IMG/VR virus record: IMGVR_UViG_2908567220_000002
Coordinates: 1-64,000 of that record
Length of the DNA stretch: 64,000 nucleotides
Source: a virus
Taxonomy: Duplodnaviria; Heunggongvirae; Uroviricota; Caudoviricetes
Reading direction: 5' to 3' (one strand)
Part shown: positions 3,599 to 6,500 of the stretch, piece after piece
How the letters are laid out: each line of letters starts with the position of its first letter
Position numbering within the stretch: the first letter of the stretch is position 1
Position numbers and translations under genes: made by a program
Notes under the pieces: generated by a model
Told to the model about the DNA's origin: nothing
Database searches by the model: none
The model's input: the letters and a program-made list of their open reading frames with translations, nothing else

Positions 3599-6500
3599 TT
3601 AAACCCAGACTGGATAACGCTCAGACAAGGTCCTGAAATCGCTCAGGGATACGCAGTTATAAAACGCATCCGCGTAACTCGTCACGCCAGGCAACTTCTC
3701 AATGAGCGCACATCCGCTTCCCTGCAATGAGCGGCAGTTGTAAAAACAACTGTACACACTGGTTATTTGCGGGTACTCCTCCGCCGGGAGGATGTCATTC
3801 ACATCACTTTCCAGCCCTGTGCAACCGTAAAAGGTGCCCTCAAACGTCGTCGCACTGGCGCACCCCGCAAACACGCCGTCGCCCATCGATCTCAGCCCGG
3901 AACAACCGTAAAAGGTCTGCCTGAAGGTTGTCACACTTACACAGTCTGCAAACAATCCTGACGGTATCGCGGTCAGGCCCGTGCATTCGTAAAACGCCTG
4001 AAAGAAAGTGGTGACACTGGCGCTGTTAGCGAACAACCCTGCAGGTATCGTTGTCAGCCCCCGGCATCCCGAAAACACCCCCTCAAACGTCGTGGCACCG
4101 GTGCAATCTGCAAATAATCTGGCCGGTACCTCCGACAACCCGGTACATTCGCCAAAAGTCTTATAGAAAGACTTTGCTCCGGTACAACCGGAAAACAACT
4201 CTGCAGGAACTTCCGACAGACGGGTACAACGGTAAAATGTCGTATAGAACGTCGTGGCTCCGGTACAATCTGCAAACAATTCCGGGGGGACCATTGCCAG
4301 TCCTGTACACCCAAAAAACGACCGGTAAAACGATCTGACACCCGAACAACCAGCAAACACGTCAGCCGGTATCGTGACCAGTCCGGTGCAACCTTCAAAT
4401 ACGCTTGCGAATGTTGTGGTACCTGTACAACCAGCAAATACTCTGTCACCCACTGTTGTCAGTGCCCTGCACCCGTAAAACGCGCTGTCAAACGTCGTGA
4501 CACTGGTGAGTTTTTCAAATAACCCTGCCGGTATCGTTACCAGCCCCGAGCATCCCGAAAACACCCCCTCAAACGTCGCAACCTCTGTGCAGTTTGCGAA
4601 CAATTTTGCCGGTATCGCTGTCAGGGCCGCGCAGCCATAAAACGTCCGGTTGAATGTCGTCACCCCGGTACAACTGTCAAACAACCCTTCCGGTATTGCC
4701 GTCAGTCCCCTGCAGTTATAAAAAGCCCGGTAGAATGTTGTAACACTGGTACATCCGGCAAACACGCCGTCTCCCACTGTTGTAAGCCCGGTACAACCAT
4801 AAAAGGTGCCTTCAAACGTCGTCGCACTGGCGCACCCCGCAAACACGCCGTCGCCCAGCGTTCTCAGTCCGGAACAACCGTAAAAGGTCTGCCTGAAGGT
4901 TGTCACACTTACACAGTCTGCAAACAATCCTGACGGTATCGCGATCAGGCCCGTGCATTCGTAAAACGCCCGGTAGAACGTCGTAACACTGGTACATCCG
5001 GCAAACACGCCGTCTCCCACCGTTGTCAGCCCGGTACAACCATAAAAGGTGTCTTCAAACGTTGTGGCACTGACACAACCGGCAAACACATTGTCGCCCA
5101 TCGATCTCAGCTCGGAACAACCGTAAAAGGTCTGCCTGAAGGTTGTCACACTTACACAGTCTGCAAACAATCCTGACGGTATCGCGGTCAGGCCCGTGCA
5201 TTCGTAAAACGCCTGAAAGAAAGTGGTGACACTGGCGCTGTTAGCGAACAACCCTGCAGGTATCGTTGTCAGCCCCCGGCATCCCGAAAACACCCCCTCA
5301 AACGTCGTGGCACCGGTGCAATCTGCAAATAATCTGGCCGGTACCTCCGACAACCCGGTACATTCGCCAAAAGTCTTATAGAAAGACTTTGCTCCGGTAC
5401 AACCGGAAAACAACTCTGCAGGAACTTCCGACAGACGGGTACAACGGTAAAATGTCGTATAGAACGTCGTGGCTCCGGTACAATCTGCAAACAATTCCGG
5501 GGGGACCATTGCCAGTCCTGTACACCCAAAAAACGACCGGTAAAACGATCTGACACCCGAACAACCAGCAAACACGTCAGCCGGTATCGTGACCAGTCCG
5601 GTGCAACCTTCAAATACGCTTGCGAATGTTGTGGTACCTGTACAACCAGCAAATACTCTGTCACCCACTGTTGTCAGTGCCCTGCACCCGTAAAACGCGC
5701 TGTCAAACGTCGTGACACTGGTGAGTTTTTCAAATAACCCTGCCGGTATCGTTACCAGCCCCGAGCATCCCGAAAACACCCCCTCAAACGTCGCAACCTC
5801 TGTGCAGTTTGCGAACAATTTTGCCGGTATCGCTGTCAGGGCCGCGCAGCCATAAAACGTCCGGTTGAATGTCGTCACCCCGGTACAACTGTCAAACAAC
5901 CCTTCCGGTATTGCTGTCAGAGCCGTGCAGCCATAAAAGGCATTACTGAACGTGGTCACGGCAGTGCAGCTGTCAAACATCCCTTCCGGCAATGCCGTCA
6001 GTCCCCTGCAGTTATAAAAAGCCTGGAGGAATGTCGTCACCCCGGTGCAGTCTGCAAATATCCCCTGACCTAATGATGTCAGCGCCTGGCAGCCATAAAA
6101 GGCCTGCAAAAACGTTGTGGCACTGGCACATCCGGCAAACACGCTGTTACCCACCGTGCTCAGTTCCCTGCAGTTATAAAAGACCCTGTAAAATGTTGTC
6201 GCACTGGTGCACCCGGCAAACACGCTGTTACCCACCGTGCTCAGTCCGGTACAACCATAAAAGGTATCCTCAAACGTCGTGGCACCGGTGCACCCGGCAA
6301 ACACGCTCTCACCCACCGCTCTCAGCCCGGTACAGCCGTAAAACGCCTGACGAAAAGTCGTTACGCCTGTGCAGCCGGCAAACGCGCTGTCACCGACTGC
6401 AGTGAGTCCCGTACATTCGTAAAATGCCTGATAGAACGTCGTGGCGCTGGCGCACTCAGCAAACAGCCCCGGAGGTATCGCAGTCAGTCCTTTACACCGG

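What the first reader, a model, noticed from the sequence alone, without database searches (positions are those of the whole stretch)
3881..5914. Two near-identical 820-bp direct repeats inside the LRR tail gene (1215-bp offset)
Positions 3881-4699 and 5096-5914 are essentially identical (one mismatch seen; identical six-frame ORFs at 4051-4449 and 5266-5664), duplicating about 270 aa of LRR units. Such recent intragenic duplication is a substrate for RecA-mediated expansion or contraction and would let the receptor-binding protein vary in length; it is also a classic site of assembly error.
Basis: seen in the sequence. Interest (0 to 1): 0.5.

Follow-up and report, generated by a model that had tools for sequence, protein, structure and literature searches.

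The report
Duplicated LRR block in prophage tail protein
A 0.8-kb block of ten leucine-rich repeat units occurs twice in a tail baseplate protein of an E. coli prophage; related prophages carry one copy, two copies or a different cassette there, so this is a real but ordinary case of repeat-driven length variation.

Summary
Window 3898-4699 and 5113-5914 are identical over 802 nt, or 822 nt with one mismatch from 3878/5093. The offset is 1215 nt, which equals 15 units of 81 nt.

Both copies lie in frame in one minus-strand gene (3599-8011, 1470 aa). The gene encodes a Mu gp48-type baseplate wedge domain, an Ig-like domain and about 36 BspA-type LRR units of 27 aa. It follows the Mu-like baseplate genes and precedes a short tail-fibre gene and its chaperone.

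The duplication is unlikely to be an assembly artefact:
- E. coli DS26-1 has the same two-copy layout, with 12 differences between its copies.
- Another strain has the copies 14 units apart.
- At least four independent short-read draft contigs, of 24 carrying the same truncated product, stop 20 nt into the first copy.

Removing 1215 nt from the window gene reproduces the E24377A allele with 0 mismatches over 1317 nt. Other alleles are 1038, 1092 or 1443 aa long or carry a diverged 13-unit cassette.

The best reading is a recent unit-register duplication that homologous recombination expands, contracts and homogenises. A receptor-binding role is inferred, not shown. Interest is modest.

The parts
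3599..8011 (-). Gene for the gp48-Ig-LRR tail baseplate protein (1470 aa from the ATG at 8011; an in-frame ATG at 8023 would give 1474 aa).
   Evidence: ORF listing and translation. RefSeq annotates the 99.7% identical DS26-1 gene as 'leucine-rich repeat protein' starting at the equivalent of 8011. Matches phrog_9915 at 1113 bits.
7466..7978 (-). N-terminal Mu gp48 / P2 gpI-type baseplate wedge domain.
   Evidence: PF10076 Phage_Mu_Gp48, 74.3 bits against a cutoff of 37.4. phrog_203 'baseplate wedge subunit', E = 1.7e-43.
6905..7150 (-). Ig-like (Big_2) domain between the wedge domain and the LRR array.
   Evidence: PF02368 Big_2, 30.2 bits against a cutoff of 22.8. This region (579 nt) is deleted in the E24377A allele.
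3620..6535 (-). Array of 36 LRR units of 81 nt / 27 aa (consensus CTSVTTFYQAFYGCTGLTAIPDGVFAG). The last three units form the C-terminal cap.
   Evidence: Direct-repeat family with spacings that are multiples of 81 nt. Unit table. LRR_5 at 127.3 bits and TIGR02167 at 74.8 bits. The AlphaFold2 model has three short strands per 27 residues. Foldseek hits are LRR proteins.
5093..5914 (-). Repeat copy A, the one nearer the N-terminus: tail of unit 8, units 9-17, head of unit 18. Exact part 5113-5914.
   Evidence: Draft contig L017 runs through most of it with 0 mismatches to the window.
3878..4699 (-). Repeat copy B, the one nearer the C-terminus: tail of unit 23 (= tail of unit 8), units 24-32 (= 9-17), head of unit 33 (= head of unit 18). 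Exact part 3898-4699.
   Evidence: Identical (0 of 823 sites differ) to copy B of strain 'numer 3' and to the corresponding part of E24377A.
4700..5092 (-). Non-duplicated 393-nt spacer (tail of unit 18, units 19-22, head of unit 23). It holds older duplicates: units 20-21-22 resemble 17-18-19 at 87-91%, and unit 23 resembles unit 7 at 85%.
   Evidence: Unit identity matrix.
4870..4943 (-). Third copy of a 74-nt exact repeat (junction of units 20 and 21). The other two copies are 5113-5186 and 3898-3971.
   Evidence: Draft contig L017 stops 2 nt before this repeat.
2761..3552 (-). Downstream 263-aa tail-fibre protein.
   Evidence: phrog_6859, phrog_454 and phrog_1833 'tail fiber protein', E = 1e-27 to 1e-31. 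No Pfam hit.
2209..2748 (-). Tail-fibre assembly chaperone.
   Evidence: PF02413 Caudo_TAP, 88.5 bits. phrog_136, E = 6.9e-56.
8020..9174 (-). Upstream baseplate J / Mu gp47-type wedge gene. gp46-, gp45- and gp44-type genes follow at 9176-11281.
   Evidence: PF04865, 189.5 bits; GP46, Mu_Gp45 and GpP-like hits. The 1155-nt annotation is taken from DS26-1.

Best explanation
The two blocks are a genuine, evolutionarily recent duplication of ten 27-aa LRR units. They lie in the register of the unit period, inside the C-terminal LRR solenoid of a prophage baseplate protein (Mu gp48-type wedge domain + Ig-like domain + about 36 BspA-type LRR units). The prophage has a lambda-like head module and a Mu-like contractile tail.

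The copies are 802 nt of perfect direct homology in one reading frame. Homologous recombination between them can therefore remove or add exactly 1215 nt (405 aa, 15 solenoid turns), or copy sequence from one block to the other, without breaking the frame. The enzyme could be host RecA or a phage recombinase; which one is inferred, not shown.

Shown here:
- the duplication itself;
- its presence in independent genomes;
- a natural allele that equals the exact one-copy recombination product;
- several other alleles that differ by whole units;
- mosaic differences between alleles that are confined to the two blocks.

Inferred:
- The LRR arm projects from each of the six baseplate wedges and acts as an adhesin or host-recognition arm. 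The duplication would lengthen it by roughly 7 nm, assuming about 4.8 Å per turn (my own estimate from typical solenoids).
- The E24377A single-copy form arose by deletion from a window-type allele, rather than the window allele arising from it.
For: - **Exact repeat.** 802 nt are identical at an offset of 1215 = 15 x 81 nt.
- **One ORF, known domains.** Gp48, Big_2 and LRR_5 domains lie in a single ORF, with Mu-like baseplate synteny upstream and a fibre plus chaperone downstream. In Mu, gp48 is wedge protein BW3, one per wedge, and it docks the fibre (PMC11915804).
- **Independent two-copy assemblies.** DS26-1 has the same layout with 12 differences between its copies. Strain 'numer 3' has an offset of 1134 nt with 9 differences.
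- **Differences confined to the blocks.** All 12 differences between the window gene and the DS26-1 gene (4413 nt) fall inside the two blocks.
- **Draft contigs.** Of 24 draft contigs that encode the same 705-aa truncated product, the four that were displayed end at gene nt 2117. That is 20 nt after the two left flanks converge, as expected for a true repeat. Dozens of 'partial' proteins of 699-738 aa exist in NCBI.
- **Natural deletion product.** The simulated 1215-nt deletion equals the E24377A allele with 0 mismatches over 1317 nt.
- **Other whole-unit variants.** P0025 is 1038 aa and complete (units 1-16, then 33-36). P0036 lacks units 7-8. IMG/VR locus L014 is 1092 aa. The C8-type alleles are 1443 aa and carry 13 different units in place of units 20-33.
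- **Fold.** The AlphaFold2 model is a regular solenoid (mean pLDDT 73) and its Foldseek hits are LRR proteins, including the BspA-type structures 4fs7 and 4gt6.
Against: - No reads are available for this genome, so the copy number in this very assembly is not directly verified.
- The copies are separated by a 393-nt non-duplicated spacer. A single unequal crossover does not explain the origin, and the founding event is unresolved.
- Perfect identity could reflect gene conversion of an older duplication rather than a young one.
- Nothing here shows that the LRR arm binds a receptor, or that changing its length changes host range. A conventional tail fibre is encoded next door.
- The direction of change between the window allele and the E24377A allele (deletion or duplication) rests on a parsimony argument only.
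Confidence: 0.8

Rival explanations
1. Assembly artefact. The genome really has one copy, and the second copy was created by misassembly. A milder version is that the two copies differ slightly and were made identical by short-read polishing.
For: Repeats longer than the reads are typical sites of error, and short-read assemblies do break here. All 12 differences from DS26-1 lie at sites that distinguish its two copies. Polishing would erase exactly that class of site.
Against: The two-copy layout occurs in two other complete genomes, and their copies carry distinguishing differences. Draft contigs ending 20 nt into copy A require two different left flanks in those genomes. The copy-A haplotype of the window is reproduced with 0 mismatches over 2824 nt by the independent contig L017. 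The copy-B haplotype is reproduced by strain 'numer 3' and by E24377A.
Confidence: 0.05
2. An older duplication kept identical by repeated intragenic gene conversion (concerted evolution), rather than a newly made duplication. The DS26-1 state, with diverged block ends, would be closer to the original.
For: In DS26-1 and 'numer 3' the copies differ only near the block ends (9-12 sites). The central 570 nt or so are identical in all two-copy alleles. The window differs from DS26-1 only at those sites, in both directions: 8 of the 9 differing copy-A sites carry the copy-B base, the ninth (gene nt 2900) is private to the window's copy A, and 3 sites in copy B match copy A. This is the classic conversion signature.
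Against: The distal part of copy A in DS26-1 and 'numer 3' is only 2 differences from the C8-type allele. Allelic recombination with a co-circulating prophage explains the same pattern without intragenic conversion. The two accounts are not mutually exclusive and cannot be separated with seven alleles.
Confidence: 0.3
3. The single-copy allele (E24377A type: units 8, 9-17, 33-36) is ancestral. The window allele arose by an out-of-register exchange between unit 23 of a longer allele and unit 8 of a single-copy allele. On this view E24377A is the precursor, not a deletion product.
For: The zero-mismatch result is symmetric with respect to direction. Unit 23 resembles units 7 and 8 (85% and 74%) and shares the last 27 nt of unit 8 exactly, so it is a plausible misaligned crossover site.
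Against: It needs an unobserved parent carrying units 1-23. The order 17-18-19 is shared with the C8-type alleles and so looks old. The E24377A prophage is visibly decayed: it has lost the Ig region, unit 5 and the baseplate J gene. That fits loss rather than ancestry.
Confidence: 0.25
4. The repeats are part of a programmed diversification system, such as a diversity-generating retroelement (template and variable repeats) or an invertase-driven shufflon like the Mu G segment.
For: Phage tail receptor-binding genes are the usual targets of such systems, and Mu-type tails often carry an invertible fibre segment (my own knowledge).
Against: The copies are direct, both lie within the coding sequence, and they are identical, so there is no adenine-specific mismatch pattern. 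No inverted repeats of 30 nt or more occur in 3000-9000. No reverse transcriptase or invertase was hit among the neighbours scanned, although not every ORF of the prophage was scanned.
Confidence: 0.02

Closest known systems
Klebsiella phage ST16-OXA48phi5.4 gp35 'tail protein I' (Peduoviridae, NC_049450) and the Kp48xx-1 prophage series
   Same: Same architecture and position. An N-terminal gpI/gp48-type wedge domain is followed by a Big_2-like domain, about 22 LRR units with the same Cys-rich consensus, and a similar C-terminal cap (...SDVN...YP...). The gene sits after the baseplate J gene and before a tail-fibre gene.
   Different: Only about 33% identical. It sits in a P2-like rather than a Mu-like tail module. 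It has no high-identity internal block: no shared 16-mers at any offset. No function has been reported for it either, as far as I found.
Phage Mu gp48 (baseplate wedge protein BW3) / P2 gpI
   Same: The N-terminal 190 aa match PF10076, and the gene follows gp44-47 homologues. In Mu, gp48 is present once per wedge and carries the loop that docks the trimeric fibre (PMC11915804).
   Different: The PF10076 gp48 profile is only about 150 positions long and the match here ends at residue 186, so the canonical gp48 domain carries no C-terminal extension. Here about 1280 extra residues (Ig + LRR) are fused to it.
BspA-type LRR surface proteins (Pfam LRR_5; TIGR02167 / DUF285 'PARCEL' repeats, Röske et al. 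2010, PMC2996958)
   Same: The sequence matches both HMMs above their cutoffs. The proteins have variable numbers of roughly 25-27-aa amphipathic units, associate with mobile elements and show intragenic shuffling.
   Different: The dyad symmetry of the coding DNA that gives PARCELs their name was not detectable here (p about 0.22). The context is a virion baseplate, not a membrane lipoprotein.
Repeat-mediated size variation of bacterial and phage surface proteins (for example streptococcal alpha C protein, or collagen-like repeats in Streptococcus thermophilus phage host-range genes; my own knowledge)
   Same: In-frame direct repeats allow recombinational gain and loss of whole units. This gives natural length variants of an exposed protein.
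   Different: Here the recombining substrate is a 10-unit higher-order block separated by a spacer, not a simple tandem array of identical units. No phenotype is known.

Membership tests
Mu gp48 / P2 gpI baseplate wedge protein (PF10076) | Profile match above the curated threshold. | tested here: met
   74.3 bits against a cutoff of 37.4, residues 16-186. phrog_203 'baseplate wedge subunit', E = 1.7e-43.
Mu gp48 / P2 gpI baseplate wedge protein (PF10076) | Gene position: directly after the gp44-gp47 homologues and before the tail fibre and its chaperone. | tested here: met
   GpP/gp44, Mu_Gp45, GP46 and Baseplate_J lie upstream; a tail fibre and Caudo_TAP lie downstream.
Mu gp48 / P2 gpI baseplate wedge protein (PF10076) | Incorporated once per wedge in the virion, where it docks the fibre. 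| not testable with these tools
   Known for Mu from cryo-EM (PMC11915804). Here it needs virion proteomics or cryo-EM.
BspA-type leucine-rich repeat (Pfam LRR_5 / TIGR02167) | Profile matches above the curated thresholds. | tested here: met
   LRR_5 127.3 bits against 27.7. TIGR02167 74.8 bits against 30.
BspA-type leucine-rich repeat (Pfam LRR_5 / TIGR02167) | Solenoid fold with one turn per unit. | tested here: met
   The AlphaFold2 single-sequence model has mean pLDDT 73.2 and a strand pattern that repeats every 27 residues. Foldseek hits at probability 1.00 include FLS2, Toll-like receptors and the BspA-type structures 4fs7 and 4gt6, though TM-scores are low because the overall curvature differs.
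[quoted passage not shown] | Dyad symmetry of the DNA that encodes each unit. | tested here: not met
   The reverse-complement self-score of the unit profile was 0.333, against a null of 0.324 +/- 0.014; 22% of shuffles reached it. No inverted repeats were found in 3000-9000.
Recombination-prone intragenic direct duplication (length-polymorphic repeat protein) | Two long direct copies at near-100% identity, in frame and in register with the unit period. | tested here: met
   802 nt exact at an offset of 15 x 81 nt.
Recombination-prone intragenic direct duplication (length-polymorphic repeat protein) | Natural alleles that correspond to recombination products. | tested here: met
   E24377A equals the simulated 1215-nt deletion with 0 mismatches over 1317 nt. 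Variants also exist with a 14-unit offset and at 1038, 1092 and 1443 aa.
Recombination-prone intragenic direct duplication (length-polymorphic repeat protein) | Measurable gain or loss of the block, dependent on a recombinase. | not testable with these tools
   Needs amplicon sequencing in recA+ and recA- lysogens.
Diversity-generating retroelement or invertible-segment system | Template and variable repeat pair with adenine-specific mismatches, or inverted recombination sites flanking the segment. | tested here: not met
   The copies are direct and identical. There are 0 inverted-repeat pairs in 3000-9000.
Receptor-binding protein of the phage | Binds a host surface receptor and determines host range. 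| not testable with these tools
   Inferred only, from the exposed baseplate position and the LRR fold. A separate tail fibre and chaperone are encoded downstream.

The most novel reading that the evidence does not exclude
The LRR arm fused to the gp48 wedge could be a modular host-range determinant. Its distal half would be exchanged as whole cassettes: copying units 9-17 from within the gene, or importing a foreign 13-unit cassette. Total length would be held near 35-36 units, since the two-copy allele of 'numer 3' and the C8-type allele are both exactly 1443 aa. This would be a recombination-based way of diversifying an LRR receptor, loosely like cassette assembly in lamprey variable lymphocyte receptors, and distinct from the usual swapping of tail-fibre tips.
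Probability: 0.1. Interest if true: 0.6.

Novelty: new member of a known kind. Interest (0 to 1): 0.3.

Why it matters
It gives a clean natural example of an LRR solenoid on a phage baseplate changing length in whole-unit steps. The two-copy allele, its exact one-copy counterpart and several other unit-number variants are all found in E. coli genomes.

On the practical side, this locus breaks short-read assemblies and yields dozens of 'partial' proteins in databases. Copy-specific differences there are easily lost, so prophage typing or comparison of receptor-binding proteins at this gene needs long reads.

On the biological side, gp48/gpI-LRR fusion proteins (phrog_9915, 'unknown function') are uncharacterised. 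If the arm is an adhesin, the one-copy and two-copy alleles are ready-made constructs for testing how arm length affects adsorption. None of this overturns current views of how tail genes evolve.

Tried and rejected
- **Megablast of the gene against GenBank phages.** No match. The tblastn search found only homologues at 33% identity or less.
- **Full-length protein search of the 5.8-billion-protein database.** Only 2 hits scored, because the repeats swamped the word filter. Repeating it with the non-repetitive N-terminal 492 aa worked.
- **Scan of GTDB representative genomes.** No relative found.
- **Look-up of the contig that encodes P0025 (the complete 1038-aa allele).** I could not check whether that single-copy form is real or a collapsed assembly.
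- **First solved-structure query.** It was out of frame and was repeated in frame.
- **PARCEL dyad-symmetry test.** Not significant.
- **Founding event as a length-preserving gene conversion of a C8-type allele.** Considered and rejected. The replaced units are only 63-79% identical to the donor units and the registers do not line up cleanly.
- **Simple tandem duplication.** Rejected, because 393 nt of the 1215-nt period are not duplicated.
- **Literature searches for LRR proteins in phage tails.** They returned nothing specific to this protein class.
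Full report
**1. The observation**

At an offset of 1215 nt the window matches itself exactly over 802 nt (3898-4699 = 5113-5914). One mismatch at 3897/5112 is followed by 19 more identical bases, which gives 822 nt with one mismatch from 3878/5093. Outside these limits identity drops to about 80% on one side and about 60% on the other.

The offset equals 15 x 81 nt. A direct-repeat search finds a family of 81-nt-spaced copies across 3812-6541. Ordinary units of this array share only about 60-75% DNA identity, so the exact run is far beyond chance.

Two things were missed. The copies are not tandem, because 393 nt (4700-5092) between them are not duplicated. A 74-nt exact repeat also occurs three times, at 3898-3971, 4870-4943 and 5113-5186.

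**2. The gene**

Both copies lie in frame in one minus-strand ORF, 3599-8023. RefSeq annotates the start of the near-identical DS26-1 gene at the position equivalent to 8011, which gives 1470 aa. Domain positions below use the longer 1474-aa numbering from 8023.

| Region | Residues | Evidence |
|---|---|---|
| Mu gp48-type baseplate wedge domain | 16-186 | PF10076, 74 bits against a cutoff of 37; phrog_203 |
| Ig-like Big_2 domain | 292-373 | PF02368, 30.2 bits |
| About 36 units of 27 aa, consensus CTSVTTFYQAFYGCTGLTAIPDGVFAG | array | Pfam LRR_5, 127 bits; TIGR02167, 75 bits |

An AlphaFold2 model of the C-terminal 1033 residues, made from the single sequence, has mean pLDDT 73. Its pattern of three short strands repeats every 27 residues. 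Foldseek returns LRR proteins, including the BspA-type structures 4fs7 and 4gt6.

Upstream lie homologues of Mu gp47, gp46, gp45, gp44 and gp43, a tape measure and a tail sheath. Downstream lie a 263-aa tail-fibre protein and a Caudo_TAP chaperone. The head genes are lambda-like: gpA terminase, lambda-family portal and capsid E. In Mu, gp48 is wedge protein BW3, one per wedge, and it docks the trimeric fibre (PMC11915804).

The protein is therefore a wedge subunit with a very long LRR extension. By analogy with Mu there would be six per virion. It is not the conventional tail fibre.

**3. Unit map**

I numbered the 81-nt units from residue 493 of the 1470-aa protein. The window array then reads: 01-08, [09-17], 18-23, [09'-17'], 33-36.

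The exact block runs from the last 27 nt of unit 8 to 46-66 nt into unit 18. Older duplications are nested in the array:
- units 17-18-19 resemble 20-21-22 at 87-91%;
- unit 33 resembles unit 21 at 96% and unit 18 at 92%;
- unit 23 resembles unit 7 at 85%.

**4. Comparison with related prophages**

Only 6 of 5,426 complete E. coli genomes carry the LRR gene over at least 80% of its length.

| Allele | Length | Arrangement |
|---|---|---|
| Window | 1470 aa | two copies, offset 1215 nt, 0 differences over 802 nt |
| DS26-1 | 1470 aa | same layout, 12 differences between its copies |
| 'numer 3' | 1443 aa | lacks unit 22, copies 14 units apart, 9 differences |
| C8, ST2350, PapM-36-2, two IMG/VR contigs | 1443 aa | no recent duplicate; after unit 19 come 13 different units at 63-90% identity to any window unit |
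| IMG/VR locus L014 | 1092 aa | C8-type allele lacking 13 units |
| P0025 | 1038 aa, complete | units 1-16, then 33-36 |
| P0036 (partial, runs off its contig) | 923 aa so far | lacks units 7-8 |
| E24377A | 844 aa | one copy (units 8, 9-17, 33-36); also lacks the Ig region and unit 5; the prophage is degraded |

Removing 1215 nt from the window gene in silico gives a sequence identical to E24377A from unit 6 to the stop codon, with 0 mismatches in 1317 nt.

**5. Is the duplication an artefact?**

Several results argue that it is real.
- Two other complete assemblies have the two-copy layout, with differences that distinguish the copies.
- Protein databases hold about 100 E. coli entries for this protein, most of them 'partial' at 699-738 aa.
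- A protein of 705 aa is encoded on at least 24 draft contigs. The four contigs displayed all end at gene nt 2117, with at most one mismatch to the window. That is 20 nt after the point (nt 2098) where the unit-8 and unit-23 left flanks converge. A k-mer assembler behaves this way at a true repeat that has two entries.
- The window's copy-A haplotype is reproduced with 0 mismatches over 2824 nt by the independent contig L017, which stops 2 nt before the three-way 74-nt repeat.
- Its copy-B haplotype is reproduced by 'numer 3' and by E24377A.

Reads for this particular genome were not available, so a residual doubt remains.

**6. Signs of ongoing exchange**

All 12 differences between the window gene and the DS26-1 gene fall inside the two blocks. 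Nine lie in the distal part of copy A; at eight of these the window carries the copy-B base, and the ninth (gene nt 2900) is private to the window's copy A. Three lie at the start of copy B, where the window carries the copy-A state.

Two processes would give this pattern. One is gene conversion between the blocks. The other is import of a C8-type haplotype into copy A of DS26-1 and 'numer 3', whose copy A is only 2 differences from C8. I cannot separate the two with seven alleles.

The founding event is also unresolved. A single unequal crossover would duplicate the whole 1215-nt period, which is not what is seen. I judge deletion from a window-type allele more likely than the reverse for E24377A. 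The order 17-18-19 is shared with the C8-type alleles, and the E24377A prophage is decayed. The zero-mismatch result itself says nothing about direction.

**7. Comparison with what is known**

The same gpI/gp48 + Ig + LRR architecture is annotated as 'tail protein I' in the P2-like Klebsiella phage ST16-OXA48phi5.4. It is about 33% identical, has the same cap motif and sits between the baseplate J gene and a fibre gene. It has no recent internal duplicate.

PHROGs holds the family as phrog_9915, with function unknown. The repeat type corresponds to the BspA/LRR_5 and TIGR02167 'PARCEL' repeats, which are known for variable unit numbers and for association with mobile elements (PMC2996958). The dyad symmetry of the coding DNA described for PARCELs was not detectable here.

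Programmed diversification by a retroelement or an invertase does not fit. The copies are direct, both are coding, and they are identical; there are no inverted repeats.

**8. Verdict**

This is a real, recent, unit-register duplication in an LRR baseplate arm of an E. coli prophage, and natural alleles show that the array gains, loses and exchanges whole units.

It is a new, well-documented instance of a known phenomenon in an uncharacterised but already catalogued protein family. A receptor-binding role, RecA dependence and any effect of arm length on host range remain inferences.

Noticed in passing
window 1179-1969 (+): An alpha/beta hydrolase gene next to the tail-fibre chaperone is split into two overlapping ORFs (111 aa and 173 aa) here, in DS26-1 and in E24377A. 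It is intact (801 nt) in strains C8 and ST2350 and nearly so (789 nt) in PapM-36-2. This is probably a frameshifted cargo gene (moron) at the prophage end.
   Followed up: partly
window 2001-8000 compared with 8001-24000: G+C is 52-57% over the tail fibre and LRR gene but 59-63% over the Mu-like tail and head genes. This suggests the distal tail genes were acquired separately (mosaic origin).
   Followed up: no
window 32040-33853 (-): A low-GC islet (36.5%) inside the prophage encodes an AbiLi-like ATPase (PADLOC E = 9.6e-26; Pfam AAA_15 weak). An adjacent 177-aa ORF could be its partner. This is a candidate abortive-infection defence module.
   Followed up: partly
window 36837-38331 (+): A Ser/Thr protein kinase is directly followed by a PP2C phosphatase. 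The kinase matches Pfam Pkinase at 110 bits and PADLOC mad6 / PD-T4-6 / Stk2-like models down to E = 1e-37. This is another candidate prophage-borne defence or regulatory pair.
   Followed up: partly
window 46288-50146 (+): An 812-aa protein with exonuclease VIII and Rv2179c-like exonuclease domains lies next to a lambda-type integrase (49016-50146). This probably marks the other end of the LRR prophage. The exonuclease might contribute to recombination between the repeats; that was not tested.
   Followed up: no
window 52138-63745 (-): The tail genes of a second, lambdoid prophage are present: a 1259-aa side tail fibre with a Peptidase_S74 chaperone domain, a 1159-aa gpJ tip attachment protein, and a lambda-type tape measure.
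   Followed up: partly
L002 2856-7187 and L003 2736-7067: The two-copy allele of strain 'numer 3' and the C8-type allele, which has no recent duplicate, are both exactly 4332 nt (1443 aa). Yet their distal 13 units are unrelated at the 63-79% level. This could be coincidence or a constraint on arm length; it is unexplained.
   Followed up: partly
L017 (GCA_012186825.1 contig AARWHA010000071.1), gene nt 1-2824: A short-read contig traverses most of copy A with 0 mismatches to the window and stops 2 nt before the 74-nt three-way repeat. Either that genome's second copy differs from the first, or it has a different arrangement. The rest of its gene could not be examined.
   Followed up: partly
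window 3620-6535 (-), every LRR unit: Almost every 27-aa unit carries two conserved cysteines (positions 1 and 14). That amounts to about 70 cysteines stacked along the solenoid, which is unusual for a virion protein and may form a cysteine ladder or disulfides.
   Followed up: no
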